Assembly: GCA_043812955.1 (NCBI GenBank)
Contig: JBDRLN010000061.1
Coordinates: 7,231-71,230, forward strand
Source: Candidatus Omnitrophota bacterium
Lineage (GTDB): Bacteria > Omnitrophota > Gorgyraeia > Gygaellales > Profunditerraquicolaceae
Direction: 5' to 3'
Length of the DNA: 64,000 nucleotides
The first letter of the stretch is position 1. The number at the start of each line of letters is the position of its first letter. A model generated the notes under the pieces. That model was not told the DNA's origin, ran no database searches, and was given only the letters and a program-made list of their open reading frames with translations. The translations under genes and the position numbers were made by a program. Below are positions 3,458-63,075 of the stretch, in pieces.

Positions 3458-4381
3458 TTACTGAATATTTACTTGAGCTATCAGCTGACGGATAGATTCT
3501 GCGGATTCCTGAAATTTGTTTTTTTCTTCCGGGCTTAAACTTAATACCACTATATCTTCTATGCCTTTTTTACCGATAACACAAGGGACTCCGATAGTAA
3601 TATCTTTGCAGCCATATTCTCCGTTTAGATAGGCGCAAACACCTCGGGTGCGTTTTTCATTTGCAATAATCCCCTCTATCAGTTCGACAATTGCCGCTGA
3701 AGGGGCAAAAAAAGCGCTTCCGCTTCCCAATAAAGATATGATCTCTAAACCCCTGCTTTTTGTTTTATTTACCAGATCTTCCATGGTTTTTTCGTCGACA
3801 ATCTCGGAAATCGGTTTTCCCTTAATATAGCTAAACCTGGGCAATGGTATCATCGCTTCGCCATGGCTGCCAATAACCATACTTTCGACATCTTTGGCCG
3901 GAACCTTTAATTCTTTACTGATTATATTATTAAACCTGGCAGCGTCAAGACTTGAACCCATGCCCAAGACTTTGCTGGGATTAAAACCAGTGGTTTTTAA
4001 TGCCAGGTAGGTCATCACATCTAAAGGATTAGTAACTACAATTAAAATCGCTTTAGGAGAGAGTGTTTTTATATTAATGCATACTTCTTTGATTATTTGG
4101 GCATTTTTACTGATTAAATCTTCGCGGGTCATTCCTGGCTTACGGGTGAGGCCGGCTGTTATCACCACTATATCCGAATCCCGGATCTGATTAATATCCT
4201 CGCTCCCGGCTATTTTGTAATCGGATTTGCTCAACGATTTGGAGTCTTCTAAGTCATACGCCTTGCCGCAGGCCAGACCCTTGGCAACATCAACTAGGAG
4301 AACTTCTCCTAAGCCTTTTTGGACGATGCGCAGGGCCGTAAGGCTTCCTACATTACCAGCGCCTATTATTGATATCTTCAT
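3458..4381 (-). CDS. mdh: Malate/lactate dehydrogenase family (likely malate dehydrogenase)
   Basis: 307 aa. MKISIIGAGNVGS Rossmann start. LDH/MDH family layout, and the gene sits with other TCA-type genes. Confidence 0.75.
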   Translation of the reverse strand: MKISIIGAGNVGSLTALRIVQKGLGEVLLVDVAKGLACGKAYDLEDSKSLSKSDYKIAGSEDINQIRDSDIVVITAGLTRKPGMTREDLISKNAQIIKEVCINIKTLSPKAILIVVTNPLDVMTYLALKTTGFNPSKVLGMGSSLDAARFNNIISKELKVPAKDVESMVIGSHGEAMIPLPRFSYIKGKPISEIVDEKTMEDLVNKTKSRGLEIISLLGSGSAFFAPSAAIVELIEGIIANEKRTRGVCAYLNGEYGCKDITIGVPCVIGKKGIEDIVVLSLSPEEKNKFQESAESIRQLIAQVNIQ

Positions 4382-4408
4382 AATTCTCTACCTATACCTG
4401 TAAGATAT

Positions 4409-4463
4409 GGGGTCAGAATTATTTTTTACTTACATTTAGAATAAAAAAAATAATTCTGACCCC
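4409..4463. repeat. Family-A palindromic element, copy 2 (perfect 19-bp arms)
   Basis: GGGGTCAGAATTATTTTTT (4409-4427), a 17-nt loop, AAAAAATAATTCTGACCCC (4445-4463). It lies between the icd-like stop and the mdh start. Confidence 0.85.
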
Positions 4464-4470
4464 ATTATTT

Positions 4471-5553
4471 TTATTTAAGTTTCTTGATGATGGCGTCAGC
4501 CATTTCTTTTGTTCCTACTGCAGCAGGGTCTTTCGGAGATGGCCTTAAATCATAGGTTACGGATTTACCTTCAAACAATACTTCCTTAACCGCTGTTTCC
4601 AATCTATCTGCTGCCTTATCTTCTTTGATGTATCTTAACATTAAAACTCCGGAAAGAATCATAGCGGTAGGATTAACCTTATTCAAACCTTTATATTTAG
4701 GCGCTGAACCGTGGACCGGCTCAAACACTGCTATTTCCTGGCCGATATTCGCTCCCGGGGCAACCCCTAAACCTCCAACTAACCCAGCGCAAAGATCAGA
4801 TAGAATATCACCGTAAAGATTAGGCAAAACCAACAGATCGAAATTTAAAGGTTTTTGAACCAACTGCATAGCCATATTATCGACCAGCGCTTCCTCAAAG
4901 GCTATCCTGCCCTGATAGGAAACAGCTACTTCCCGAACAGTCTTTAAGAATAGTCCGTCGGTAAATTTCATTATATTGGCCTTAGTTACACAGGTTACTT
5001 TTTTACGCTTATTCTTCAGGGCATATTCAAAAGCAAACCTGGCTATTCTGTCGCTGGCAAACCTGGATATCGGTTTAATCGAGATTCCGGAATCAGGACT
5101 GATCTTTTTCTGGGAATAATCTTCTATCTGTTTGATGATTTTACGGGTATAGGGCTCGCCTTCCTCAAATTCAATCCCCGCGTAAAGGTCTTCGCTATTC
5201 TCCCTGATTATTACCAGGTCAACATCCTTATAGAATGACTTAACCCCGGGATAGTATTTCGCCGGACGCACACAAGCATATAAATCTAGCACCTGGCGCA
5301 AGGCCACATTTACCGAACGAAAACCGCCGGCGATAGGAGTAGTAATCGGCCCCTTAATGCAAATTTTATTCTTCTTTATTGACGCGATTGTTTCTTCAGG
5401 TAAAAGACAACCATGCTTTTCTTGTGCAACTTCTCCGGCATATCTTACTTCCCATTCGATTTTTACGCCCGTAGCCTCAATACAGCGCCGGGAGGCCTCG
5501 GTTATTTCCGGACCTGTTCCATCACCAGGTATTATTGTTATTTTATATGCCAT
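4471..5553 (-). CDS. Beta-decarboxylating dehydrogenase; best resembles NAD-dependent isocitrate dehydrogenase (homoisocitrate / isopropylmalate DH family)
   Basis: 360 aa. Motifs [41 protein letters not shown] and HGSAP, as in IDH3-type IDH/LeuB. Confidence 0.7.
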
Positions 5554-5566
5554 CTTTAACCTGCTC

Positions 5567-5597
5567 CACCCCGTAGGTGTATTACACCTACGGGGTG
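5567..5597. repeat. Family-B hairpin, copy 1 (CACCCCGTAGGTGT-att-ACACCTACGGGGTG)
   Basis: Perfect 14-bp stem with a 3-nt loop, 14 nt upstream of the icd-like ATG. A twin lies at 18387-18417. Confidence 0.85.
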
Positions 5598-5619
5598 TAA
5601 ATTAGACTTCTAAATATAC

Positions 5620-6123: not shown

Positions 6124-6132
6124 AACTTTATT

Positions 6133-6186
6133 GGGGTCAGAATTATTTCTTCTTTATTATACTTAGAAAAAAATAATTCTGACCCC
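6133..6186. repeat. Family-A palindromic element, copy 3
   Basis: GGGGTCAGAATTATTTCTTC ... GAAAAAAATAATTCTGACCCC, with one mismatch. It lies between the pilT stop and the leuD start. Confidence 0.8.
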
Positions 6187-6193
6187 AATTCCC

Positions 6194-7240
6194 TTATAGT
6201 TGCCTAAACTCTTCAATATTCTTGGCCTTGGACATAGCCATTTCCAAAGTAATAATTCCGCTCTGGTACATCTCTTTTAAACATTTATCCATTGTCCTCA
6301 TCCCGTATTGGCTCCCAGTCTGCATCAAAGTAGGGATTTGCTCGATCTTTTGCTCACGGATAAGGTTTCTTATGCCTGAGGTGGCAATCATTATCTCAGT
6401 GGCTAAAACCCTCCCCCTTCCTGAGGCTTGCGGAAGTAGCAATTGAGAAATTACACCCTGCAAACAATCGGATAACTGTAATTTAACCTGAGCCTGCTGG
6501 TGCGGCGGAAATACATCTATTATCCTTTCTATAGTCTGCGGCGCGTCAGGCGTATGCAAAGTTGCTAAAACAAGATGTCCGGTCTCCGCGGCTGTAAGAG
6601 TAGTGGCGATAGTCTCAAGGTCGCGCATTTCTCCTACTACTATAACATTAGGATCCTGCCGCAACGCATGACGCAAGGAATCAGCAAAAGAGCGGGTATC
6701 AGCATAAATCTCTCTCTGTTTAATAACGGCCTTCTTATTCGAATGAATAAATTCAATCGGATCTTCAATACACATTATTAAGCATTCCCTCTCTTTATTA
6801 ATAAGATCGATCATTGCTGCTAAAGTAGTAGTCTTGCCTACTCCGGTAGGCCCGGTTACTAAAACCAGGCCATTAGGCTTACGGGCTAATTCAATAGCTA
6901 TAGGAGGCAAGCCTACATCTGCCATGATCGGAATTTTAATGGGGATTCGCCTAAAAGCAGCCTCTACTGAATTTTTCTGCATATGTACATTTACCCTGAA
7001 CCTGTCTAAACCCGGTAAGGCCAGAGAAAAATCCAGCTCCAGGTCCCGTTCAAATACTTCTTTCTGGACGTCACTTAAAACACTATAAATTACTTTCTTA
7101 AGGATCTCCTTGTTAAAAACCGGCAGGATTGTCCTTTGCAGTTTTCCGTCAATACGTAATATTGGCGGCTCATTATCGGTGAAATGCAAGTCAGAAGCTT
7201 GTTTTTCTATACATAATTCCAGCAAATCCCGTATTTCCAT
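6194..7240 (-). CDS. pilT: Type IV pilus retraction ATPase PilT/PilU family
   Basis: 348 aa. MEIRDLLELCIEKQASDLHF start, Walker A GPTGVGKTTT, PilT-like C-terminal region. Confidence 0.85.
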   Translation of the reverse strand: MEIRDLLELCIEKQASDLHFTDNEPPILRIDGKLQRTILPVFNKEILKKVIYSVLSDVQKEVFERDLELDFSLALPGLDRFRVNVHMQKNSVEAAFRRIPIKIPIMADVGLPPIAIELARKPNGLVLVTGPTGVGKTTTLAAMIDLINKERECLIMCIEDPIEFIHSNKKAVIKQREIYADTRSFADSLRHALRQDPNVIVVGEMRDLETIATTLTAAETGHLVLATLHTPDAPQTIERIIDVFPPHQQAQVKLQLSDCLQGVISQLLLPQASGRGRVLATEIMIATSGIRNLIREQKIEQIPTLMQTGSQYGMRTMDKCLKEMYQSGIITLEMAMSKAKNIEEFRQL

Positions 7241-12835: not shown

Positions 12836-12853
12836 TTTATTTCCTCCTTATAT

Positions 12854-12920
12854 CGGTTTTCGGTTTACGGTTTTCAGTTTACGGTATTGGCCGCTAACCG
12901 ATAACCGCTAACCGATAACC
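12854..12920. repeat. Family-D element, copy 1: tandem CGGTTTACGG-type units followed by complementary CCGATAACCG-type units
   Basis: cggttttcggtttacggttttcagtttacgg ... ccgctaaccgataaccgctaaccgataacc. Left and right halves are imperfect reverse complements. It sits just upstream of the rpsM SD. Confidence 0.75.
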
Positions 12921-12924
12921 TTAG

Positions 12925-16204: not shown

Positions 16205-16467
16205 TAATAACCTCTGGTATAATCTTCAGGTATAAATCTTAGGGATTATACCTGATTACTGAGATTAATAAAGATTACTGCGATTAAACCATTAATCGCC
16301 TTATTAGACAACTTTGTTACTAAAGTTTAGTAATAACCCTATCGGTTATAGAGTCTCTATTTTTAATCTCTGTAATCTCACTTTTCCCGCTAGTCGCGGG
16401 ATCCCGCCAGATAAGAGATTATTGAGCGGGATAATCATTGTAATCAGACATCCTTACTTCTTTCTCA
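16205..16467 (-). repeat. Family-C structured spacer (263 nt) between rplO and secY
   Basis: It shares its whole architecture with the rpsL-rpsG spacer at 29797-29961 (8-bp GACATCCT...AGGATGTC hairpin, then AGATTACAGAGAT, then an ~85-nt block). A 100-nt insert with overlapping GC palindromes is unique to this copy. Confidence 0.8.
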
Positions 16468-16980
16468 TTATAGGATGTCTATTTTACCGCCTGTATTTTT
16501 TATCTTCTCCTGAGCCTTTTTAGAAAAGGCATGGGCATAAATTATCTTCGCTGCCTTAAGCTCGCCATTGCCCAGTATCTTTACAGGCAAAGATTTACTT
16601 TTGATAAAGCCTTTTTCCAGCATTAACGCCGGATTGATCATATCTTCTTTGACCTTGGTTAAAACCTCCAGATTAACTACCTGATATACTTTCGGGGATC
16701 TGCTATGGAACCCGCGTTTGGGCATCTTACGGATAAGTGGAGACTGGCCTCCTTCGAATCCCAGATAAGTACCAGGGCCTGAACGCGAAGTCGCGCCTTT
16801 ACTTCCCCGGGTTGAAGTCTTTCCATGCCCCGAGCCTGCTCCCCGGCCTAAAAGCTTTCTCTTCTTATGGGAACCATGAGGCGCTTTTAGGTTATGCAGC
16901 CCGATTTTTTTCAGATCCACATTTGTTTTTTGTTTTATTTCAGGTTGTTGAACCGCTATTGTTCTTTTAGTCTTGAGCAT
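16468..16980 (-). CDS. rplO: Ribosomal protein L15
   Basis: L15 core GRGAGSGHGKTSTRGSKG. The ATG follows the rpsE stop directly (aagggaaaaaaaTAAATG). A ~20-aa N-terminal extension makes the start uncertain. Confidence 0.8.
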   Translation of the reverse strand: MLKTKRTIAVQQPEIKQKTNVDLKKIGLHNLKAPHGSHKKRKLLGRGAGSGHGKTSTRGSKGATSRSGPGTYLGFEGGQSPLIRKMPKRGFHSRSPKVYQVVNLEVLTKVKEDMINPALMLEKGFIKSKSLPVKILGNGELKAAKIIYAHAFSKKAQEKIKNTGGKIDIL

Positions 16981-17439
16981 TTATTTTTTTCCCTTTAAAT
17001 CTCCTAAAGCTACCATAGTAGCCTTGATTACGTTAATAGGATTATTAGATTTTAAAGATTTAGTCAGGATATCCTTGATTCCACAAGCCTCGCATACTGC
17101 CCTGACCGGGCCGCAGGCGATTACTCCTGTTCCTTCGGAAGCCGGCTTTAAAAGAACCAAGGCCCCGCCATACTTACCCAGAACTTCGTGAGGGATACTT
17201 GAGTTTTCCACTCCAATCTTAACTAAATCTTTTTTAGCCCGGCCCAGCCCTTTACGTATGGCATCGGCAACCTCGTTTGCCTTACCTAAAGCAAAGCCCA
17301 CCCGGCCGTTCCTATCCCCGACAACCACCAGGGCGCTGAAAGACATATTCTTCCCGCCCTTAGTTACCTTGGTAACCCTGTTGATCGAAACTATCTTCTC
17401 GCTTAACTCTGATTGCTGTTGAATATTCATTTCGCGCAT
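16981..17439 (-). CDS. rpsE: Ribosomal protein S5
   Basis: 152 aa, S5 dsRBD and C-terminal domain. Confidence 0.9.
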
Positions 17440-18352: not shown

Positions 18353-18386
18353 GAAGCTTACTCCTTTACCTTTTTATTGAACACTA

Positions 18387-18417
18387 CACCCCGTAGGTGG
18401 AGTCCACCTACGGGGTG
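18387..18417. repeat. Family-B hairpin, copy 2 (CACCCCGTAGGTGG-agt-CCACCTACGGGGTG)
   Basis: Perfect 14-bp stem between rpsH and rplF. It differs from copy 1 by a compensatory T:A to G:C change at the loop-closing pair. Confidence 0.85.
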
Positions 18418-18426
18418 GAAATGGTA

Positions 18427-18822
18427 TTACCAGATATACCCAATGACCTCGCCGCCGGCCCTTTGTTCCCGGGCTTCCTTATCCGTCAAAATACCTTTAG
18501 ATGTCGAAATAATCGCCAAACCTCTGCCCCGCAAAACATACGGAATTTTATCATGGGTAACATATTTACGCAACCCCGGCCTGGATACGCGTTTTATACC
18601 GCTGATTACGCATTTCTTACCGCTGTATTTTAGATAGACCCTTAAAGAACCCTGTTTTTTATCCTCGATTAATTTAAAATTGTCTATGTATTCTTCTCTC
18701 TTTAATATCTCCAGAATACATTTAACAACCTTACAAGCAGGAATATCCAAATTCTCTTTTTTAGCCATCATCGCGTTTCTTATGATAGTAAAAGCATCAG
18801 CTATAGAATCTGTCCTAGACAT
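18427..18822 (-). CDS. rpsH: Ribosomal protein S8
   Basis: 131 aa, [17 protein letters not shown]... Confidence 0.9.
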
Positions 18823-19993: not shown

Positions 19994-20147
19994 GTCTTTT
20001 CCTTATATAGTTATTGCTGAAAAACCCAGCAATAACTTTATTTTGGAGATTTTTAAAAAGATTACAGAGATTTATCCGAGGATGTTTAATCTTGTAATCT
20101 GTATTTTAATCGCTGAAATCAAGTTAACACTGCTTTTTCAGTGTTAA
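19994..20147 (-). repeat. Structured rplN-rplX spacer: twin 10-bp hairpins (GTTAACACTG/CAGTGTTAAC and GTTATTGCTG/CAGCAATAAC) flanking family-C-like GATTACAG motifs
   Basis: Seen directly. The first hairpin follows the rplN stop and is followed by UUGAUUU. The second ends 16 nt before the rplX ATG. Confidence 0.7.
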
Positions 20148-20516
20148 CTATATGACTTCCGGGGCCAGGGAAATAATCTTAGTAAAATTCTTCTCGCGCA
20201 ATTCTTTGGCTACCGGGCCAAACACCCTTGTCCCCCTGGGATTCAACTGGGCGTCAATAATCACAATAGCATTACGGTCAAATCGTAGTATCGAACCATC
20301 AGCGCGCCGAATTGCCTCTTTAGTTCTGACTACTACCGCTTTAGCCACCTCTCCCTTTTTAACCACCGCGTCAGGAGATGATTCCTTAACACTGACATTA
20401 ATAATATCGCCGACCACGGCATTCATTGCGTTCTTTTTTCCCAATACTCCTATAAGGGAAGCCCTTTTTGCTCCGGTATTATCCGCTACGTCTAAAATAC
20501 TGCGCAATTGAATCAT
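20148..20516 (-). CDS. rplN: Ribosomal protein L14
   Basis: 122 aa, [17 protein letters not shown]... Confidence 0.9.
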
Positions 20517-22598: not shown

Positions 22599-22725
22599 AG
22601 ATAGTAGTTAGTAGGCAATATGTAGGAATAACCTAATCCCTTTTTTGCTACTTACATTGTTATTTATTTTTTTTAGTAGGCTTCTTTGGGATACCCTAAT
22701 CCCTACCTACTACATGCTACATACT
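22599..22725. repeat. Family-F element, copy 1 (CCCTAAT...CCTACCTACTACAT[G/A]CTA core with GTAG/CTAC-rich inverted arms)
   Basis: A 140-bp spacer between rpsS and rplV, which are normally adjacent genes. The arms are agtagttagtaggcaatatgtagg ... cctacctactacatgctacatact, and ccctaatccc appears twice. Confidence 0.75.
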
Positions 22726-22729
22726 GTTT

Positions 22730-23017
22730 TTAGGTCTTTTCGGCCGCCTTCTTGGCCTTGACACCGCCGTGCTTTCTGAATATCCGGCTGAAAGAAAACT
22801 CCCCTAATTTATGCCCAACCATATTCTCAGTCACAAATACCGGGATATGTTTTCTCCCGTCATATACCGCAAAGGTAAATCCCACAAAATCCGGTATGAT
22901 CGTTGAACGCCTGGACCAGGTCTTAATTGCCTGGCGTCCGCCGGAAATACGCATCCGGTCAACTTTTTTAATCAACTTCTCTTCTACAAACGGTCCTTTT
23001 TTTAATGAGCGCGGCAT
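22730..23017 (-). CDS. rpsS: Ribosomal protein S19
   Basis: 95 aa, [15 protein letters not shown]... Confidence 0.9.
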
Positions 23018-23857: not shown

Positions 23858-23866
23858 GTTTTGTCT

Positions 23867-23933
23867 CGGTTTGCGGTTTGCGGCTTTCGGGTTTCGGCCT
23901 AAAACTTTTCCCGTACACCGAACACCGATAACC
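23867..23933. repeat. Family-D element, copy 2
   Basis: cggtttgcggtttgcggctttcgggtttcgg ... cccgtacaccgaacaccgataacc. It sits between rplW and rplB. Confidence 0.75.
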
Positions 23934-23939
23934 AATTGT

Positions 23940-27135: not shown

Positions 27136-29232
27136 TTAACGTTGTTTTTGTCCTGAAGAGGCAAAACCCGATATAATTTTTTCAGATATATATAAAGGCA
27201 CCTCAGTGTAGTATGAGGGCTCCATTGTATAAGACGCGCGGCCCTGAGTCAAAGACCTGGATACCGTAGCGTAATTAAATATTTCAGCCAGGGGGACAAA
27301 TGTCTTGATCGCCCGGACATTAGCCCTGGGGTTGATCGAGACTATCTTGGCCCGACGAGAGCTTAAATCACCGATTATCACCCCCATAAATTCTTCAGGA
27401 ACAATTATCTCCATATTCATGATCGGCTCTAATAATACCGGATGGGCCTTGCGCATGCCGTCGGATAAAGCGATACTGGCAGCCATTTTAAAAGCCATTT
27501 CCGAGGAATCTACTTCATGAAACGATCCATCCACTAGTATAACCTTAACATCGGTAACCGGGTAATTAGCTAATACCCCGCTCTTGGCCCGGTCAAAAAT
27601 ACCGTCTTTTACCGAAGGTATAAACTCCTGGGGGATCGCCCCGCCTTTTATTTTATTTTCAAATGTGATTCCGGCGCCCGGTGCCTCCTGAGGCTCTATC
27701 TCAATAACTACATGTCCGTATTGACCCCTGCCGCCGGATTGCTGGATAAATTTTCCGGTAGAGGTAACTTTCTTAGTAATAGTCTCCCGGTAGGCGACTT
27801 CCGGAAACCCGGTCTGGACTTGGACATTAAATTCCCTAAATATCCTATCGGCAATAATCTCCAGATGTAATTGCCCCATTCCTGATATTACAGTCTGCCC
27901 GGTTTCATGGTTATAATTTACCCTGAAAGACGGGTCCTCTTCTACTAATTTATGCAAAGCCATACCCAATTTTTCCTGGTCATTCTTGGTCTTAGGCTCG
28001 ATCGCCTGCTGAATCACTGGCTCAGGAAAACGCATCGCCTCAATTAATATTGGGTTAGACTCTTCACAAAGCGTATCACCGGTTTTAGTGTCTTTTAAAC
28101 CCACGGCAGCTACAATATCGCCGGCAAAAGCCGATTCGATTATCTCTTGGCGGTTAGCGTGCATTCTCAATAATTTAGTAATTCTTTCTTTTTCTCTTTT
28201 GGATGCGTTATAAATATATTTACCTGAATTTAAAGTCCCGGAGTATATCCGGATATAATTGAGTTTACCAACAAAGGGATCAGTAGCGACCTTAAAGCAG
28301 AACGCACAAAAAGGGGCTTTCTCGCTAACCAGGATCTCCTCGAATTCGCCAGTCTTAGGATTGGTCCCTTTGATCGGAGGAACATCCTTAGGAGACGGAA
28401 GGTAATCACCGACGGCATCCAAGAGCATCTGAACGCCTTTATTTCTGAATGAAGAACCACAAAGAACTGGAATAAATTTATTCAAAGACACCGTCCTACG
28501 GATCACTTCTTTAATTTTAAGCGTAGTAATTTCTTGCTGGTGAAGATAAATCTCCAACATCTCGTCATCAACTTCAGCCAACTTCTCAATCAATAGGTTG
28601 CGGTAATGCTGTGCATCTTTCTTCAATTCTTCGGGTATCTCCAAAACCTCAAATTCCTTGCCGGTCTCTTCTTTATAGACTATAAGCTTATTCTCAACCA
28701 GATCGACTAGACCGTTAAAATTCTCTGCCTGGCCAAAGGGAAGCTGAATAGCTGCAGCGTTTGCCCCTAACATTTTATGCATCTGGTTAATTGTTTCTAT
28801 GAAATTCGCGCCGGTTCGGTCCATCTTGTTGACAAATGCGATCCGGGGTACACCGTAACGATCAGCCTGACGCCAGACTGTCTCTGATTGGGGCTCTACC
28901 CCGCCTACTCCGCAAAATACTATAATGGCCCCGTCTAAAACCTTAAGCGACCTCTCCACTTCCACGGTAAAATCAACGTGTCCGGGAGTATCGATAATAC
29001 TGATATAAAAATCCTTCCATAAACAGGTAGTAGCGGCAGCGGTAATAGTGATACCCCTCTCCTGCTCCTGAGCCATCCAATCCATTGTCGCTGTGCCTTC
29101 ATTAACCTCGCCTATCTTATAGGTCCTGCCGGTATAATAAAGGATCCGCTCGGTAGTAGTCGTCTTACCAGCGTCGATATGGGCGATGATCCCGATATTC
29201 CTGATCCTGTCTAATGGTATATGTCTATTCAT
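27136..29232 (-). CDS. fusA: Elongation factor G
   Basis: 698 aa. [13 protein letters not shown] and DTPGHVDF motifs. Confidence 0.95.
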
Positions 29233-29240
29233 ATTTTTCC

Positions 29241-29313
29241 GGGACGGTTCTCAAACCAAAGCTAAAGTGTCCCTTTTTTGGGGACAGTTTAAGATCAGTT
29301 TCAGAACCGTCCC
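29241..29313 (-). repeat. Family-G nested hairpin element, copy 1 (outer GGGACGGTTCT/AGAACCGTCCC, inner TGTCCC-tttttt-GGGACA)
   Basis: It fills the rpsG-fusA spacer (29233-29325) and ends 8 nt before the fusA ATG. Its homologue at 55376-55448 is about 85% identical. Confidence 0.8.
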
Positions 29314-29325
29314 TGCATTTAAAAT

Positions 29326-29796
29326 TTACCACCTAAAATGGGCAAAGGCCTTATTTGAATCTGCCATTTTATGTGTATCATCTCTCTTCTTAATCGCCGA
29401 ACCTTCTCCCTTATACGCTGACATGATCTCGTCGGCCAATTTCTCTTTCATGGTTTTACCTTTTTTATTCTTGGCAAAATCCCTTATCCAGCGTAAAGCG
29501 ATCGATGCCCCGCGGTCCTGCCTTACTTCGATCGGAACCTGATAAGTCGCTCCACCTACCCTACGGGGCTTTACTTCTAAGCGCGGCCGGACATTATCAA
29601 TAGCTTTATTAAAAACCTTTATCACATCTGGTTCATTAAGGTATTTTTTTACGGATTCAAATGCTCCGTAAACTATCCTTTCAGCCACCGATTTTTTACC
29701 TTCCAACATAACCATATTGATAAATTTACCAACTATCTTATTGTTATATTTGGGATCTGATAAAGTTTCTTTCTTGAATACCCTTTTTCTTCTCAT
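29326..29796 (-). CDS. rpsG: Ribosomal protein S7
   Basis: 156 aa. Confidence 0.9.
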   Translation of the reverse strand: MRRKRVFKKETLSDPKYNNKIVGKFINMVMLEGKKSVAERIVYGAFESVKKYLNEPDVIKVFNKAIDNVRPRLEVKPRRVGGATYQVPIEVRQDRGASIALRWIRDFAKNKKGKTMKEKLADEIMSAYKGEGSAIKKRDDTHKMADSNKAFAHFRW

Positions 29797-29961
29797 TTAT
29801 TCTCTTTCCTGGTATAATCATCAGGTATAAATTTTGGGGATTATACCTGATTACTGAGATTAATAAAGATTGCAGCGATTAAACTTCTGTCTTTTATCTC
29901 TGTAATCTGCCTTTTAATCACTGTAATCAGACATCCTCATTACTTCTTATTACAGGATGTC
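29797..29961 (-). repeat. Family-C structured spacer (165 nt) between rpsL and rpsG
   Basis: Homologous to 16205-16467. The last ~85 nt before the rpsG ATG are ~93% identical to the last ~85 nt before the secY ATG. Confidence 0.8.
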
Positions 29962-30339
29962 TTAGGCTGCCTTCGGCATTTTTGCCCCGTATTTTGAACG
30001 GGATTTTTTACGGCTGTTCACTCCTGCCGCGTCCAGGGTCCCTCTAACTATATGATACCTTACCCCGGGAAGATCCTTTACCCTGCCGCCCCTTACTAAG
30101 ACTATAGAATGTTCCTGCAGATTATGCCCTTCTCCTGGTATATACGCAGTTACCTCAATACCTGTAGTCAACCTGACCCTAGCGATCTTTCTTAAGGCAG
30201 AATTGGGCTTCTTAGGAGTCATAGTCTTGACCTGAATACAAACACCTCTGCGCTGCGGACAAGCTTTTAAGGCCATAGATTTGGATTTCTTAATCTTAGA
30301 TCTACGGCTGAACCTGATTAACTGGGAAATTGTAGGCAT
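29962..30339 (-). CDS. rpsL: Ribosomal protein S12
   Basis: 125 aa, ...[10 protein letters not shown]... Confidence 0.95.
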
Positions 30340-38241: not shown

Positions 38242-38310
38242 TTACGGTTAGCGGTGTTCGGTTTACGGTTATCGGTGTTCGGTCTAATCGCTCACCCGAT
38301 ACCCGCTAAC
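38242..38310. repeat. Family-D element, copy 3
   Basis: tacggttagcggtgttcggtttacggttatcggtgttcgg ... cacccgatacccgctaacc. It sits between rplJ and rplL. Confidence 0.75.
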
Positions 38311-38320
38311 CTAAAACCTA

Positions 38321-40714: not shown

Positions 40715-40785
40715 CAGGAGCGGCAGGAGTCGAACCTGCAGTTACGGTTTTGGAGACCGTTGGTTTGCCATTAACCGACGCTCCT
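40715..40785 (-). tRNA. tRNA-Trp (anticodon CCA)
   Basis: rc read AGGAGCG...GGTCTCCAAAACCG...GGTTCGACTCCTGCCGCTCCTG. Anticodon loop CUCCAAA, T-loop TTCGACT, 7-bp acceptor stem. No encoded CCA. Confidence 0.85.
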
Positions 40786-40992: not shown

Positions 40993-41065
40993 AGCTGGAG
41001 ACGGGAATTGAACCCGTGACCCCGTCCTTACCAAGGACGTGCTCTACCAACTGAGCTACTCCAGC
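40993..41065 (-). tRNA. tRNA-Thr (anticodon GGU)
   Basis: rc read GCTGGAGTAGCTCAGTTGGTAGAGCACGTCCTTGGTAAGGACGGGGTCACGGGTTCAATTCCCGTCTCCAGCT. Anticodon loop UUGGUAA. Confidence 0.85.
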
Positions 41066-41211: not shown

Positions 41212-41240
41212 AATATACACTATAAATTTAATTTTGTCAA
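41212..41240 (-). promoter_or_regulatory. sigma70-type promoter (TTGACA-17-TATATT) for the tRNA-Thr/rpmG/tRNA-Trp/secE/nusG/rplKAJL unit
   Basis: Minus-strand read: TTGACA, a 17-nt spacer, TATATT. The -35 region overlaps an AT-rich palindrome, CCCTTTTTTTTAAAAAAAGGG (41241-41262), downstream of the coiled-coil gene. Confidence 0.6.
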
Positions 41241-52915: not shown

Positions 52916-53030
52916 CCTAGTAGGTAGTATTTAGGGTTTCCCTAATACCTATCTATTAACTACCCTATACTGAATCAGTAGGTAGTATTTAATAAAAACC
53001 CTAACTCCTACCTACTACATACTAAATACT
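52916..53030. repeat. Family-F element, copy 2
   Basis: agtaggtagtattta repeated directly (52919-52933 and 52977-52991), and it ends with ccctaactcctacctactacatactaaatact. It sits between hisI and the trpE-like gene. Confidence 0.75.
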
Positions 53031-53034
53031 ATCT

Positions 53035-53364
53035 TTATATTGTTCTATAAAAACATGACCTATTGCCGGTGTGACAGGCAACGCCCACCTGCCTGACCTT
53101 GACCAGGAGCGCGTCCATATCGCAATCAAAAGCAATGGATTTTACAAGTTGAAAATTTCCGGAGGTCCCCCCCTTAACCCAATATTCTCTTCTCGAACGC
53201 GACCAAAAACAAGTCTTGCCTAATTTTAAGCTCCGCTGAATCGACTCTTTATTCATATAAGCGACCATCAGCACATCTTTAGTTTTGTAATCCTGGACTA
53301 CCGCCGGTATTAAACCGGTCTTATCAAATTTTAAATCCTTAATCTTAAACTTTTTATCTTTCAT
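53035..53364 (-). CDS. hisI: Phosphoribosyl-AMP cyclohydrolase (HisI domain only)
   Basis: 109 aa. Zn-binding C..C..H..C region ([10 protein letters not shown]...CHTGNRSCF). Confidence 0.85.
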
Positions 53365-53374
53365 TTTTTATGAT

Positions 53375-53420
53375 CCCTAATTTGCCCTACCTACTACATA
53401 CTACCTACTATCTACTAAAT
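53375..53420. repeat. Family-F element, copy 3
   Basis: ccctaatttgccctacctactacatactacctactatctactaaat. It sits between hisF and hisI. Confidence 0.7.
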
Positions 53421-55359: not shown

Positions 55360-55375
55360 ATTTCCATATCAGGCA

Positions 55376-55448
55376 GGGACGGTTCTCAAGCCAAAGCTAA
55401 ACTGTCCCCAAAAAAGGGACACTTTAAGATCAAGTTAAGAACCGTCCC
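55376..55448 (-). repeat. Family-G nested hairpin element, copy 2 (central palindrome inverted relative to copy 1)
   Basis: The outer GGGACGGTTCT / AGAACCGTCCC arms match copy 1. The centre reads TGTCCCCAAAAAAGGGACA, against TGTCCCTTTTTTGGGGACA in copy 1. It fills the hisH-hisA spacer. Confidence 0.8.
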
Positions 55449-55454
55449 TGCATT

Positions 55455-56105
55455 TTATAATTCAACGAAGTTTTTCAATATTTTCAGTCCCACAGCCTGG
55501 CTTTTCTCAGGATGAAACTGCACACCGATTATATTATCCTGCCAGACCACAGAAGCAAAATTAATCCCATAATCAGTAGTGGCGGCAACTACGGCTTTAT
55601 CCTCAGGCTGCGGATAATAAGAATGGCAGAAATAAACATAAGGCTTCTCTGACAGCCCCCTTAATAACGGGCATTCCTTTATCCCTGGCCCCTTATCACC
55701 TTCCTGTCGCTGAGGCAGACTTATCCCTGTATTCAACTGGTTCCAACCCATATGCGGGACTTTTAAACCCCTACCAGGAACAAATTTTTTTACCTCTCCT
55801 CTTAATACTCCTAAGCCTTTAACGCCATTAGATTCTTCGCTAGTTTCAAATAACAGCTGCATGCCTAAACATATTCCTAAAAATATCTTCTTATGTTTTA
55901 TAGCATCAATAACAGCTGAAATTAAACCCTGCCTATCCATCTCGGATACAGCGTCAGCAAAAGCCCCCACACCGGGAAGGACTATCTTTTCGCATTTATT
56001 CAATACTTCAGGCTTATTAGTCAATAAAACCTTAGCGCCTAAAGACTTTAGAGCCTTTTGAACGCTATGGATGTTGCCCATTCCATAATCAATTATCCCG
56101 ATCAT
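55455..56105 (-). CDS. hisH: Imidazole glycerol phosphate synthase glutamine amidotransferase subunit
   Basis: 216 aa. GICLGMQLL catalytic Cys and the HPEKS motif. Confidence 0.9.
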   Translation of the reverse strand: MIGIIDYGMGNIHSVQKALKSLGAKVLLTNKPEVLNKCEKIVLPGVGAFADAVSEMDRQGLISAVIDAIKHKKIFLGICLGMQLLFETSEESNGVKGLGVLRGEVKKFVPGRGLKVPHMGWNQLNTGISLPQRQEGDKGPGIKECPLLRGLSEKPYVYFCHSYYPQPEDKAVVAATTDYGINFASVVWQDNIIGVQFHPEKSQAVGLKILKNFVEL

Positions 56106-61541: not shown

Positions 61542-63075
61542 CTTCTTTAACCAAGAAATAGCCCCTGGCAGTCTTTATTAAACAATTGCCTCTGGCCAGC
61601 TTGGTTATCCGGCTGTAATCCGCGTAATTCTTAATCGACTGCCGGTTTATCTCTATGATCACATCTCCGGAGATAATGCCCGCGTTATCTGCCGAGCTAT
61701 TCGGTTCAACCGAAACCACAACTACCCCTTCTTTTTCCGCTGAATGCATGCGCCGCTTAGATTCAGGACTTAATTCTTCGGCCCTGATACCCCTCCAGGA
61801 GCCAGCTTCGGATATACCTATTTCTTCTTCGGTTTTTTCTACATCCTGAGGCCGCTCTCCGATATCTGCGTTTAAAATTATTTCTTTCTTATCCCTAATC
61901 ACAACAACCTTTATCTTTTTACCTACTTCGGCCTTACCGACATTGCTCAATAACTCCTTAACATTTGCGATCGGCTTGGAATCAAATTGCTTGATTATAT
62001 CGCTTTCTTTCATTCCGGATTTTTCCGCTGGACTGCCTTTTAAAACCTTGGCTACTAAAACCCCGATTTTATCGCTTACACCAAAATACTTAGCCAGGTC
62101 CTCGGTTAGATCCTGAACTGTAATACCCAACCATCCATAAGCTATCTTTTTCCCCTCGATAAGCCTAGAGATTATACTTTTTGCGGTATTAGAAGGAATT
62201 GCAAAACCCACCCCTTGGTATCCGCCGGTTGTAGAAAATATTACTACATTAATTCCGACAATCTCCCCTTTTAAATTTACTAAAGGCCCTCCGGAATTAC
62301 CGGGATTTATCGCCGCGTCAGTCTGAATAAGATCGTTAAAATCCTTATCTCGGGAGAGCGCCCGGCCTAAACTCCTATGCAAGGCGCTGATTACACCCGC
62401 GGTCACTGTTGGCTCAGGATTCTGCATGGCAAATCCAAAAGGATTACCTATGGCTACTACCCATTGTCCTATCCTTAAACTATCCGAATCCCCTAAACTT
62501 GCCACCGGCAAATTCTTAGGAGCCTCAATTTTAATAACTGCCAAATCTGAACGAGAATCTTTTCCTTTTACTTGAGCCTTAAACTCGCGGCCATCAGATA
62601 AAGTTACGGTTATTTTATCCGCATTATCGACTACATGCTCATTGGTTAAAATATAACCGGCATCATCAATTATCACCCCGGACCCTAAAGCTGTCTGCCT
62701 GAATTCCCTCTCCGGAATATCGCCAAAAAACTCATTGAAGAAACGCCGGAATAGTTCATCATTTCCAAAAGGCATCTCTTCGCCTCCACCAAACGGAGAA
62801 TAGCGGTAATATCTTCTCTGGCTACCCCCTATTTTAGTCAACTGCTCAGTGCTAATAGAAACAACAGCCTTTCCCGATGTATCGGCCACTCGGATAATCG
62901 CATCCTCCATATTAAAACCTTCTAATGAAGTAGGCTCGGAATAATTTTTAATTTTTGGCTTGGTCTCCTGACTAATAGCTGTAACCGGAAAATTTAAACT
63001 TCCTGCCACTAGCAAGCCAATGATTAAACCGGACAGCGTAAAAAAAACAGCAAAAAATAATGTTCCTTTCTTCAT
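61528..63075 (-). CDS. htrA: Periplasmic serine endoprotease HtrA/DegP family (trypsin domain + 2 PDZ)
   Basis: 515 aa. Signal peptide. Catalytic triad contexts TNEHVV (His), DLAVIK (Asp), GNSGGPL (Ser). Two PDZ-like regions. Confidence 0.9.
   Translation of the reverse strand: MKKGTLFFAVFFTLSGLIIGLLVAGSLNFPVTAISQETKPKIKNYSEPTSLEGFNMEDAIIRVADTSGKAVVSISTEQLTKIGGSQRRYYRYSPFGGGEEMPFGNDELFRRFFNEFFGDIPEREFRQTALGSGVIIDDAGYILTNEHVVDNADKITVTLSDGREFKAQVKGKDSRSDLAVIKIEAPKNLPVASLGDSDSLRIGQWVVAIGNPFGFAMQNPEPTVTAGVISALHRSLGRALSRDKDFNDLIQTDAAINPGNSGGPLVNLKGEIVGINVVIFSTTGGYQGVGFAIPSNTAKSIISRLIEGKKIAYGWLGITVQDLTEDLAKYFGVSDKIGVLVAKVLKGSPAEKSGMKESDIIKQFDSKPIANVKELLSNVGKAEVGKKIKVVVIRDKKEIILNADIGERPQDVEKTEEEIGISEAGSWRGIRAEELSPESKRRMHSAEKEGVVVVSVEPNSSADNAGIISGDVIIEINRQSIKNYADYSRITKLARGNCLIKTARGYFLVKEDGGK

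What the first reader, a model, noticed from the sequence alone, without database searches (positions are those of the whole stretch)
16205..16467. Family C: homologous long spacers in front of secY and rpsG, each starting with an 8-bp hairpin over the upstream stop and containing a tiny MSDY-ORF
The 263-nt rplO-secY spacer and the 165-nt rpsL-rpsG spacer (29797-29961) are collinear.

Shared layout:
- A hairpin, GACAUCCU-N16-AGGAUGUC. In the rplO case it overlaps the last codons and stop.
- Then UGAUUACA(A/G)UGAUUA.
- Then AGAUUACAGAGAU.
- Finally an ~85-nt block, ~93% identical, ending at the start codon. This block contains three GGTATAAT/ATTATACC motifs and an 11-bp hairpin (CAGGTATAAAT/ATTTATACCTG).

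Mini-ORFs:
- The 3' arm of the first hairpin carries an SD-like AGG and an AUG. This opens a 10-codon ORF, MSDYNDYPAQ, at 16419-16451.
- In the other copy it opens a 7-codon ORF, M(R)MSDYSD, at 29914-29940.

The secY copy carries a ~100-nt insert with mutually exclusive GC palindromes (cccgc-tagt-cgcggg, GCGGGATCCCGC, atcccgc...gcgggat). This is attenuator-like.

A related fragment lies in the rplN-rplX spacer.
Basis: seen in the sequence. Interest (0 to 1): 0.6.

Follow-up and report, generated by a model that had tools for sequence, protein, structure and literature searches.

The report
Mobile hairpin repeat splitting ribosomal genes
The two look-alike spacers in front of secY and rpsG are not conserved regulatory leaders; they are two recent insertions of a previously undescribed, hairpin-forming intergenic repeat found across the uncultivated phylum Omnitrophota, always wedged between one gene's stop codon and the next gene's ribosome-binding site.

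Summary
The rplO-secY spacer and the rpsL-rpsG spacer share a collinear element: a 9-bp 5' hairpin, GATTAC-rich arms, and a 76-nt 3' block that is 93% identical.

- All six relatives examined (SecY 87-97% identical) have rplO overlapping secY by 8 nt.
- A relative with 97%-identical S7 has a 15-nt rpsL-rpsG spacer.
- Both copies are therefore lineage-specific insertions placed exactly between the stop codon and the native Shine-Dalgarno (SD) sequence.

The same element is dispersed. A 23-base pattern hit 60 loci, about 50 of them in Omnitrophota genomes of many species.

Its architecture is a variable hairpin, then a conserved palindrome of GATTACAnnGATT units, then a second hairpin. In the window's subfamily the second hairpin has an invariant AGGTATAAT stem. 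In 17 of 17 copies it ends 10-17 nt before the start codon of unrelated genes.

The "attenuator-like" GC palindromes are a nested copy of a second repeat family. The MSDY mini-ORF is a by-product of one hairpin variant.

Best reading: a REP/ERIC/BOX-like mosaic mobile repeat, co-transcribed as intercistronic stem-loops. How it moves and what it does remain unproven.

The parts
16216..16480 (-). secY copy of the element, long form, 265 nt (AGACATCCT...GATTATACC). It is inserted into the former rplO/secY overlap.
   Evidence: The empty site ggtaaaatagaggttattaATG is found in six relatives, against the filled site in the window. The copy is collinear over its whole length with L050 from another species.
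16446..16480 (-). Module M1: the 5' hairpin AGACAUCCU-17 nt purine-rich loop-AGGAUGUCU. The new rplO stop TAA (16468-16470) lies in the loop.
   Evidence: Other copies show compensatory stem variants.
16432..16445 (-). Outer GATTAC unit of the 5' arm (GATTACAATGATTA).
   Evidence: Arm consensus from 112 arms.
16386..16431 (-). Nested copy of a second repeat family (TCCCGC..GGCGGGATCCCGC..GCGGG, two adjacent GC hairpins).
   Evidence: There is a clean 47-column gap against L050. CGGGATCCCG has 2 matches in the window against 0.03 expected, and copies occur in other spacers of L001, L004 and L010.
16361..16385 (-). A-rich linker plus the inner GATTAC unit of the 5' arm (AAAAGTGAGATTACAGAGATTAAAA).
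16286..16360 (-). Central module of the long form, made of small hairpins. It is absent from the rpsG copy but present in L050, L052, L014, L055 and L047.
   Evidence: The stem TTACTA/TAGTAA in the window corresponds to TTGTTA/TAACAA in L050, which is two compensatory pairs read directly from the alignment.
16254..16285 (-). 3' arm (AATCGCAGTAATCTTTATTAATCTCAGTAATC). It pairs with the 5' arm to form the long imperfect stem.
16216..16253 (-). Module M3: AGGTATAATC..GATTTATACCTG..GATTATACC. One 5' arm can pair with either of two 3' arms.
   Evidence: AGGTATAAT is invariant in 17 copies. Fold.
16205..16215 (-). Native secY ribosome-binding region (AGAGG TTATTA), retained from the ancestral rplO coding sequence and left unpaired in the predicted fold.
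   Evidence: The same sequence is present in the empty sites of relatives. It is unpaired in the fold.
29811..29962 (-). rpsG copy of the element, short form, 152 nt: M1 29929-29962, GATTAC stem 29849-29928, M3 29811-29848. Its first A is shared with the rpsL stop codon TAA.
   Evidence: The empty site in L152 reads gcagcTTAAaaggaaagagaataaATG. Fold. nhmmer E = 1e-34.
29797..29810 (-). Native rpsG ribosome-binding region (AGGAAAGAGAATAA).
   Evidence: The same sequence is present in the empty site of L152.
20010..20149 (-). Degenerate third copy in the rplN-rplX spacer: hairpin AGTTAACACTG/CAGTGTTAACT, decayed GATTAC arms, then hairpin GTTATTGCTG/CAGCAATAAC.
   Evidence: nhmmer E = 6e-8. L001 has a clean core in the same spacer.
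16419..16451 (-). Mini-ORF MSDYNDYPAQ*. It is judged a by-product of the M1 3' arm (..GGATG..) joined to GATTAC/GATTAA and is not counted as a functional part.
   Evidence: The companion ORF MRMSDYSD* lies at 29914-29940.

Best explanation
Both spacers are copies of a dispersed, non-coding, modular repeat element of Candidatus Omnitrophota. The short form is about 130-150 nt and the long form about 185-220 nt.

Shown:
- The unit that moved runs from AGACATCCT to GATTATACC.
- It was inserted, in this lineage only, exactly between the end of the upstream gene and the pre-existing Shine-Dalgarno sequence of the downstream gene.
- At rplO-secY this split an ancestral 8-nt gene overlap. It replaced the last five L15 residues (EVINA) with DIL and a stop codon in the hairpin loop.
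- The element consists of a 5' hairpin whose sequence varies but whose pairing is kept, a long imperfect palindrome built from conserved GATTACAnnGATT units, and a 3' hairpin with an invariant GGTATAATC/GATTATACC stem.
- It can carry nested copies of other repeats.

Inferred:
- The element is (or recently was) mobilised in trans by an unidentified enzyme or by recombination. It behaves like REP/BIME, ERIC, BOX or Correia elements.
- These stem-loops break translational coupling between the neighbouring cistrons. They probably also act as processing or stability determinants: a 3' protective hairpin for the upstream message, a long double-stranded stem, and a 5' hairpin directly in front of an unpaired SD.
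- The strict orientation and SD-abutting position reflect either a targeted insertion mechanism or strong selection for harmless or useful placements.
- It is not an attenuator and does not encode a functional peptide.
For: Insertion:
- Six relatives (L001-L006, L153, L154; SecY 87-97% identical) all have rplO overlapping secY with the sequence ...aaaatagaggttattaATGCTTAG. The window has ...aaaat[AGACATCC...TTATACC]agaggttattaATG.
- L152 (S7 97% identical) has a 15-nt rpsL-rpsG spacer that matches the window's flanks.
- Coding DNA is 81-89% identical between these genomes, yet the alignments break at spacers.

Dispersal:
- One degenerate 23-base pattern hit 60 loci in species-representative genomes. 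About 50 are labelled Omnitrophota, with up to 7 hits per genome on different contigs.
- A profile search gave 125 hits in those loci and exactly 3 loci in the window.
- The family is essentially absent from viral contigs.

Architecture:
- 53 of 112 arm ends abut a perfect hairpin of at least 7 bp, against 1.0% of random positions. There are 41 different stems.
- Arm units are spaced 9-11/12-9 nt.
- Consensus folds show M1 with both-sides changes at 5 of 6 pairs.
- L050, in a genome only ~81.5% identical in coding DNA, is collinear with the secY copy over its whole length. L010 is 97% identical over the 3' block.

Placement:
- In 17 of 17 composite copies from 12 or more genomes, M3 faces a same-strand ORF start 10-17 nt away, after an A(A)GGAGG-type SD. 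A sign test gives p = 1.5e-5.
- The downstream genes are unrelated: secY, rpsG, prs, rny, grx, xseB, rodZ, ompH, PilZ, a response regulator and others.

Structure:
- MFE is -43.6 kcal/mol (z = -5.2) for the rpsG copy and -90.6 kcal/mol (z = -6.1) for the secY copy.
- The SD and AUG are left unpaired.

Against the leader reading:
- No Rfam family matches at gathering or permissive thresholds.
- The mini-ORF is not conserved.
- The GC palindromes are a nested second family.
Against: - No transposase, RAYT or autonomous parent element was found or could be searched for. No copy has arms enclosing a gene.
- The moved unit has no terminal inverted repeats.
- A target-site duplication is at best 2 nt (AG) and is ambiguous with microhomology.
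- The core and M3 stems are nearly invariant, so there is no covariation to prove they act as RNA structures. The variable triplets in the two arms do not covary. This points to sequence-specific recognition (a protein, or a promoter -10) rather than pairing alone.
- Counts of G-U versus A-C mismatches give no clear strand signal.
- Placement between co-directional genes (46 of 52) equals the genomic baseline of 88.7% and is therefore uninformative.
- Transcription, processing and any effect on secY or rpsG expression are untested.
- Cross-species identity higher than that of coding DNA could mean function or recent horizontal spread. The two cannot be separated here.
Confidence: 0.65

Rival explanations
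1. Portable promoter cassette. The invariant AGGTATAAT of M3 is a -10 box, so each insertion gives the downstream gene (secY-adk-map..., rpsG-fusA-tuf) its own transcription start 25-40 nt before the ATG. This would not exclude the element being a mobile repeat.
For: - AGGTATAAT is invariant in 17 of 17 copies and always lies just upstream of an SD and ATG.
- The organism uses TATAAT-type -10 boxes: TTGACA-17-TATATT sits upstream of the tRNA cluster.
- The stems show sequence invariance without covariation.
- Correia elements are known to create promoters at their ends (PMC2649163 abstract).
Against: - The consensus scan finds no sense-strand promoter in either copy.
- The best -35 candidate is TTTATT (3 of 6) by direct reading.
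- No TGn extension exists on the sense strand. The perfect extended -10 TGGTATAAT lies on the antisense strand, as a consequence of the palindrome.
- The variable spacing (6-30 nt) of the two TATAAT-bearing arms fits a hairpin.
- Two composites keep only a minimal hairpin (L020, L061).
Confidence: 0.15
2. One reading: conserved cis-regulatory leaders of secY and rpsG, acting as a leader-peptide attenuator or a ribosomal-protein autoregulatory site. Translation of the MSDY mini-ORF and alternative GC hairpins would control downstream expression.
For: - An SD-like purine-rich loop and an AUG in the 3' arm of M1 open short ORFs in both copies.
- Alternative pairings exist in M3 and in the GC palindromes.
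- The rpsL-rpsG spacer is the S7 autoregulation site in E. coli (own knowledge).
Against: - The element is absent from the orthologous junctions of the closest relatives and from 78 S7-anchored loci.
- The same element sits upstream of 15 unrelated genes in other species.
- Only 8 of 53 flanking hairpins carry an ATG, and the frames differ (MS*, MSRLQRL...).
- The GC palindromes are a nested foreign repeat, absent from the otherwise collinear L050 copy.
- No terminator with a U-tract follows the hairpins.
- No Rfam leader family matches.
Confidence: 0.03
3. DNA-level protein-binding array. The eight phased GATTA(C) motifs (spacing 9-11/12-9 per arm) would be iteron-like sites for a conserved Omnitrophota DNA-binding protein, such as a nucleoid-associated, segregation or replication-related factor, or the cognate transposase. 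The hairpins would be incidental.
For: - The arm motifs are conserved as sequence across species, while the triplets between them vary without compensation.
- Conservation exceeds that of coding DNA.
- REP/BIME elements bind gyrase and IHF, and Correia elements bind IHF (own knowledge; PMC2649163 abstract).
Against: - The strict orientation of the composite relative to transcription and its abutment to the SD (17 of 17) are not expected for a symmetric DNA site.
- Flanking hairpins are maintained by compensatory change. This needs single-stranded folding of RNA or ssDNA.
- No candidate protein is known.
Confidence: 0.1
4. Independent small RNA or antisense RNA genes. The perfect extended -10 (TGGTATAAT) on the antisense strand would drive a structured ~150-250-nt antisense transcript across the element and into the 3' end of the upstream gene.
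For: - TGGTATAAT is present on the antisense strand in all 17 composites, as the reverse complement of ATTATACCA.
- The rpsG copy scores 10 of 12 with TG as an antisense promoter.
Against: - The -35 of that hit lies in rpsG flanking sequence that is not part of the element.
- The secY copy gives no hit.
- No terminator follows on that strand.
- The motif is an automatic consequence of the palindromic stem.
Confidence: 0.05

Closest known systems
ERIC / IRU elements of enterobacteria
   Same: - Both are imperfect palindromes of ~130 nt lying in transcribed intergenic regions.
- Both are conserved across genera rather than within one species.
- Both have shorter and longer variants through internal deletions or insertions.
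- Both are co-transcribed with the flanking genes.
- ERIC effects on mRNA stability depend on orientation (PMC2229807, section on ERIC).
- The mobilising enzyme is unknown in both cases.
   Different: - There is no sequence similarity, and the phylum is different.
- ERIC has short terminal inverted repeats with TA ends and a TSD (PMC2229807, Table 1). Here the moved unit has no terminal inverted repeat, and the palindrome is internal, flanked by two unrelated hairpins.
- The SD-abutting, single-orientation placement (17 of 17) is not an ERIC feature to my knowledge.
BOX elements of streptococci (boxA-boxB-boxC)
   Same: - Both are modular mosaics with fixed module order and optional or repeated internal modules.
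- Sizes range from tens to hundreds of nt.
- Both are predicted to form stem-loops when transcribed and to affect co-transcribed genes.
- Both generate spurious small ORFs (PMC3049150).
   Different: - The modules are unrelated in sequence.
- BOX has terminal inverted repeats and a TSD (PMC3049150).
- BOX is not reported to dock at the SD.
Correia repeat enclosed elements (CREE/NEMIS) of Neisseria
   Same: - Both are small, abundant inverted-repeat elements inside operons.
- The transcripts form long stems that RNase III can bind and cut.
- Both carry TATAAT-like sequences at the ends that can act as promoters.
- Both show presence/absence differences between close strains (PMC2649163).
   Different: - CREE has 24-26-bp terminal inverted repeats and a TA duplication (PMC2229807, Table 1).
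- Here no promoter or RNase III activity has been tested.
- Conservation here spans a phylum.
REP / BIME / REPIN elements with RAYT transposases
   Same: - Both are extragenic hairpins, often between genes of one operon.
- REPINs are inverted doublets that form a long hairpin.
- BIMEs are mosaics of several motifs.
- Both persist over long periods (PMC3116915, PMC3337134; BIME from own knowledge).
   Different: - In REPs the small palindrome itself is the conserved, enzyme-recognised part. Here the small flanking hairpins vary freely (41 stems) and the linear GATTAC units are conserved.
- No RAYT gene has been linked to this family.
- REP families are usually specific to a species or genus.
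IS200/IS605-derived palindrome-associated elements (PATEs)
   Same: - Both have subterminal hairpins at both ends and no terminal inverted repeats.
- Both show no clear TSD and strand-specific insertion next to a short sequence. Here the bottom strand reads ...YCT|GGTATAAT, and the element itself ends ...TCT (own knowledge of the family; sequence reading).
   Different: - The two end hairpins here are unrelated in sequence, whereas IS200/IS605 left and right hairpins are alike.
- No Y1 transposase was found.
- The large internal palindrome has no counterpart in PATEs.

Membership tests
MITE (miniature inverted-repeat transposable element) | Small, non-coding and multi-copy | tested here: met
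   The element is 129-265 nt. There are 60 pattern-matched loci, up to 7 per genome, and 125 profile hits. The mini-ORF is not conserved.
MITE (miniature inverted-repeat transposable element) | Terminal inverted repeats at the ends of the mobilised unit | tested here: not met
   Two filled/empty comparisons define the unit as AGACATCCT...GATTATACC. Its two ends are not reverse complements of each other. The inverted repeat (the GATTAC arms) is internal.
MITE (miniature inverted-repeat transposable element) | Target-site duplication | tested here: inconclusive
   Both window insertions are compatible with a 2-nt AG duplication, or equally with no duplication plus microhomology. Other copies (L020, L030, L066) do not show a consistent dinucleotide.
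MITE (miniature inverted-repeat transposable element) | A related autonomous element encoding the transposase | tested here: inconclusive
   No pair of arms encloses a gene in ~0.5 Mb of loci. Whole genomes could not be scanned.
REP / REPIN | A conserved short palindrome recognised by a RAYT, arranged as inverted doublets | tested here: not met
   The flanking palindromes have 41 different stem sequences. The conserved parts are the linear GATTACAnnGATT units.
REP / REPIN | A RAYT (Y1 transposase) gene in the same genome, typically flanked by the repeats | not tested
   Only a 64-kb window of the source genome and 8-kb loci of the others are held.
ERIC | Sequence similarity to the 127-bp enterobacterial consensus | not tested
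   No ERIC model was run. The GATTAC consensus read here bears no resemblance to ERIC as I recall it (own knowledge).
Ribosomal-protein autoregulatory leader (for example the S7 site in rpsL-rpsG) | Conserved at the orthologous junction; mimics the rRNA binding site; matches a curated RNA family | tested here: not met
   The element is absent from the orthologous junctions of relatives. No Rfam family reaches even 40% of its gathering score.
Leader-peptide transcription attenuator | A conserved translated leader ORF plus alternative terminator and antiterminator hairpins with a U-tract | tested here: not met
   The ORF is present in only 8 of 53 hairpin variants, with inconsistent frames. The GC hairpins are a nested foreign repeat. 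No U-tract terminator is found on the sense strand inside the elements, apart from a weak GCGATTAA hairpin hit.
IS200/IS605-type ssDNA element (PATE) | Similar subterminal hairpins at both ends; insertion 3' of a fixed tetra- or pentanucleotide; a Y1 HUH transposase | tested here: inconclusive
   Hairpins sit at both ends, but they are unrelated in sequence. The bottom-strand target ends in CT in 14 of 17 copies and TT in 3 of 17 (read). The transposase was not searched for.

The most novel reading that the evidence does not exclude
The element is an orientation-locked 'intercistronic cassette' that homes to the stop-codon/Shine-Dalgarno junction. Its insertion machinery (ssDNA-based or RNA-based) would recognise the purine-rich SD edge. 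Its invariant GGUAUAAUC hairpin and phased GAUUAC arrays would be read by a conserved, Omnitrophota-specific protein that sets translation initiation or mRNA processing of whatever gene lies downstream. This would be a phylum-wide, transposable post-transcriptional control module, and the other hairpin families with tandem-repeat arms in these genomes would be sister systems.
Probability: 0.15. Interest if true: 0.8.

Novelty: new variant of a known kind. Interest (0 to 1): 0.55.

Why it matters
- It replaces a tempting but wrong regulatory story with a documented insertion. A repeat element has split one of the most conserved gene overlaps in bacteria (rplO/secY) and rewritten the C-terminus of L15 without destroying either gene.
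- It brings to light an undescribed repeat family in a phylum with no cultured, genetically tractable members.
- The family has three unusual properties: sequence conservation across species that exceeds that of coding DNA, flanking hairpins kept only as structures, and a 17-of-17 docking of one end onto the ribosome-binding site of unrelated genes.
- If the docking reflects a mechanism rather than selection, it would be a new kind of target choice for a bacterial mobile element.
- If it reflects function, it would be a portable module for uncoupling genes within operons.
- Practically, the family is a marker for Omnitrophota genomes. It is also a likely cause of assembly breaks, spurious small-ORF calls and false 'riboswitch-like' candidates there.

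Tried and rejected
- Exact-sequence look-ups of the window's SecY, S12 and S7, and of the 100%-identical S7 protein P0121, found no contig. The source genome could not be enlarged or censused.
- Rfam at gathering score and at E <= 10 gave only tRNAs and far-sub-threshold generic hairpin hits.
- Literature searches for Omnitrophota or Omnitrophica together with repeat, intergenic or palindromic found nothing relevant.
- Enrichment between co-directional genes was rejected. The 46 of 52 figure equals the 88.7% baseline (p = 0.62).
- G-U versus A-C mismatch counts, used to tell an RNA (sense-strand) structure from a DNA one, came out roughly 26 against 14 by hand count. Several A-C cells come from misaligned stretches, so this is inconclusive.
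- A search for an autonomous parent (arms enclosing a gene) found none.
- Viral contigs as a vehicle gave one hit for the core pattern and none for the composite pattern.
- An IS3-like reading of the TG...CA core ends with a 3-4-bp TSD was rejected, because the flanks do not match (read).
- A CsrA-site reading of AAGGAUGU in M1 was rejected. The motif lies in the stem, and other copies replace it with unrelated stems.
- Integron attC and dif-like readings of the palindromes were rejected on sequence and variable spacing (own knowledge).
Full report
**1. What is in the window**

The window carries a ribosomal super-operon on the minus strand, running rpoB-rpoC-rpsL-rpsG-fusA-tuf-rpsJ...rplO-secY-adk-map...rpoA-rplQ (gene identities from the orthologous loci).

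- Both begin with the hairpin AGACAUCCU-loop-AGGAUGUCU.
- UGAUUACA(A/G)UGAUUA follows, and further on AGAUUACAGAGAU.
- Both end with a 76-nt block that is 93% identical (family D2).
- That block contains the GGTATAAT/ATTATACC motifs.

The similarity is far beyond chance. The 28-nt hairpin pattern gives 2 matches against 0.00 expected. Both stretches fold much better than shuffled sequence: -43.6 kcal/mol with z = -5.2, and -90.6 kcal/mol with z = -6.1.

- The stem is 9 bp.
- The loops are 17 nt and 16 nt.
- The conserved block stops at ...GATTATACC, 11-14 nt before the ATG.

**2. The organism and the orthologous junctions**

SecY places the window in Candidatus Omnitrophota. I fetched the rplO-secY region from every close relative available, with SecY 97, 96, 96, 95 and 87% identical.

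In all of them rplO overlaps secY by 8 nt.
- The relatives read ...ggcggtaaaatagaggttattaATGCTTAG.
- The window reads ...ggcggtaaaat[AGACATCC...265 nt...GATTATACC]agaggttattaATGCTTAG.

The overlap is also present in the more distant L006, so it is ancestral and the window carries an insertion. The insertion changed the L15 C-terminus from ...GGKIEVINA* to ...GGKIDIL*, with the new stop in the hairpin loop. It left the original secY SD (AGAGG) and start untouched.

The rpsL-rpsG junction gives the same picture.
- L152 (S7 97% identical) reads ...gcagcTTAAaaggaaagagaataaATG.
- The window reads ...gcagccTA[AGACATCC...GATTATACC]AGGAAAGAGAATAAATG.
- Another relative (L147) has a different, unrelated hairpin repeat at this junction.
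- 78 S7-anchored metagenome loci have either a tight junction or other repeats, and never this element.

Coding DNA of these genomes is 81-89% identical to the window, while the alignments break at nearly every spacer. The spacers therefore turn over rapidly by insertion and loss.

**3. The element is a dispersed family**

I scanned one genome per species for a degenerate 23-base pattern of the 3' arm. It hit 60 loci. About 50 are labelled Omnitrophota, they come from many species, and there are up to seven hits per genome on different contigs.
- A profile built from six copies finds 125 hits in those loci.
- In the window it finds exactly three places: the two spacers and a decayed copy in the rplN-rplX spacer.
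- The family is practically absent from viral contigs.
- I found no description of it in the searchable literature or in Rfam.

**4. Anatomy**

The conserved heart is a long imperfect palindrome. Each arm holds two GATTACAnnGATT units separated by an A-rich linker, with GATT spacing of 9-11/12-9 nt in 93 of 112 arms.
- The loop is usually 0-18 nt, but it can hold inserts.
- The variable triplets of the two arms do not compensate each other, so the units are conserved as sequence and not only for pairing.

Each end of the palindrome abuts a perfect hairpin of 7-12 bp, joined as stem-(T)GATTAC.
- This holds for 53 of 112 arm ends, against 1.0% of random positions.
- The stems have 41 different sequences.
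- These hairpins are therefore kept as structures.
- In the consensus fold the 5' hairpin shows changes on both sides at 5 of its 6 scored pairs.

The window's copies belong to a subfamily found in at least 12 genomes.
- The 5' hairpin (M1) is usually AGACATCCT/AGGATGTCT with a purine-rich loop.
- The 3' hairpin (M3) is AGGTATAATC...GATTATACC.
- AGGTATAAT is invariant in all 17 copies, and ATTATACCA nearly so.

The secY copy is the long form.
- It is collinear over its whole length with L050, which lies upstream of a rodZ-like gene in a genome whose coding DNA is only ~81.5% identical.
- The one exception is a clean gap that corresponds to 16386-16431.
- The second family also sits in the rplE-rpsN spacer of the window, L001 and L004, and in other spacers of relatives.

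The rpsG copy is a short form lacking the central module.

The 3' block of the secY copy is 97% identical to L010 from the other species, more than to its sibling in the same genome (93%). The element is thus either strongly constrained or recently exchanged.

**5. Placement**

In all 17 composite copies the M3 end faces a same-strand ORF that starts 10-17 nt away, after an A(A)GGAGG-type SD. The opposite orientation never occurs (p = 1.5e-5).
- The downstream genes are unrelated. They include secY, rpsG, ribose-phosphate pyrophosphokinase, RNase Y, glutaredoxin, XseB, RodZ, OmpH/Skp, PilZ proteins, a response regulator and AsmA.
- The M1 end typically touches or overlaps the stop codon of the upstream gene.
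- The two empty sites show that the SD belongs to the target and not to the element.
- The element therefore lands, or only survives, exactly between stop codon and SD.
- Location between co-directional genes (46 of 52) is not informative, because 88.7% of all neighbouring gene pairs in these loci are co-directional.

**6. What it most likely does**

Shown: the insertion, the dispersal, the modular anatomy, the structural conservation of M1, and the strict orientation.

Inferred: the element is transcribed with the operon and forms three adjacent stem-loops, while the SD and AUG stay unpaired.
- At rplO-secY this must have replaced translational coupling through an overlap with independent initiation.
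- By analogy with ERIC, BOX, REP and Correia elements, such stems can protect the upstream message from 3' exonucleases, offer a double-stranded cleavage site, and cap the downstream message (PMC2229807; PMC3049150; PMC2649163).

I could not identify the mobilising activity.
- The moved unit has no terminal inverted repeats.
- It has an ambiguous 2-nt AG at both junctions.
- It has hairpins at both ends.
- This is reminiscent of single-strand (HUH-type) elements, but the two hairpins are unrelated in sequence.

**7. Rivals**

A promoter role for the invariant TATAAT cannot be excluded.
- The organism does use TTGACA-17-TATATT upstream of its tRNAs.
- However, no sense-strand -35 or TGn extension is present.
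- The perfect extended -10 lies on the antisense strand as a by-product of the palindrome.

The leader-peptide/attenuator reading is rejected.
- Only 8 of 53 flanking hairpins contain an ATG.
- The peptide MSD(Y/C)xD* arises because ATG-TCT is followed by GAT-TAC-nnn-GAT-TAA of the arm.
- Other copies read MS* or run on without a stop.

A DNA-binding-array reading fits the uncompensated, phased GATTA motifs. It does not fit the orientation rule or the compensatory hairpins.

**8. Verdict**

The spacers are two recent insertions of an undescribed, phylum-wide, modular hairpin repeat. It resembles REP/BIME, ERIC, BOX and Correia elements in kind, but it meets the defining features of none of them. 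It adds an unusual SD-docking, single-orientation placement.

Noticed in passing
window 12851-12921, 23864-23934, 38249-38319; 22693-22732, 52998-53037, 53377-53416; 5564-5619, 18384-18439; 2102-2160, 4408-4466, 6132-6189, 61867-61892: At least four further hairpin-repeat families occupy intergenic spacers of the window: CGGTTTT../..AACCG, CTACCTACTAC.., the CACCCCGTAGGTG palindrome, and TGGGGTCAGAATTATTTT/AAAATAATTCTGACCCCA. Like Family C, their arms are often short tandem repeats.
   Followed up: no
window 29230-29327 (rpsG-fusA spacer) and 55365-55462: A two-part GGGACGGTTCT...GTCCC / GGGACA...CCGTCCC hairpin pair is repeated 26 kb apart. The rpsG-fusA copy is shared with L147 but absent from L152, which has a 6-nt spacer there. 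It is therefore another inserted family.
   Followed up: partly
window 19094 (rplE-rpsN spacer); L001 7399; L004 7226; L001 873; L004 11397; L010 3854 and 3946: The CCCGn..nCGGGATCCCGn..nCGGG double-hairpin family nested in the secY element also occurs on its own. The rplE-rpsN copy is kept in three species.
   Followed up: partly
L004 spacers 3585-3690, 5145-5520, 6155-6250, 6550-6670; L147 2904-3000; L068, L071, L076, L087 rpsL-rpsG spacers: Relatives fill the same operon junctions with other families whose hairpin arms are tandem repeats of a short motif: ACGCGGAT, CACGGAT, CTCGTT/AACGAG, GCCAGTT/AACCGGC and GTTCTnA. This looks like a general and unexplained Omnitrophota trait.
   Followed up: no
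window 16468-17439: There is no rpmD (L30) gene between rpsE and rplO. L15 is 170 aa, with its last residues rewritten by the insertion.
   Followed up: partly
window 41212-41240 (-): A canonical TTGACA-17-TATATT promoter lies directly upstream of the tRNA cluster (tRNAs at 40993-41065 and 40715-40785). This shows that the organism uses standard sigma-70 signals.
   Followed up: no
L007, L016, L031, L048, L065, L023, L062, L063: The core pattern also hits MAGs labelled Schekmanbacteria, Thermodesulfovibrionales, WOR-3, Stahlbacteria and Planctomycetia. This could be horizontal spread, binning contamination or taxonomy noise.
   Followed up: no
window 16446-16480 and 29929-29962 (M1): Read from the element's first base, all three frames hit a stop codon within M1 or the first GATTAA of the basic element. 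Whatever the frame, an upstream ORF running into the element would be closed quickly. This was not tested against chance, and AT-rich sequence has many stops.
   Followed up: no
protein P0121: An S7 protein 100% identical to the window's is recorded on a 71,774-nt NCBI contig of an Omnitrophota MAG, but it could not be retrieved. It may be the source genome or a very close strain, and would allow a genome-wide census.
   Followed up: partly
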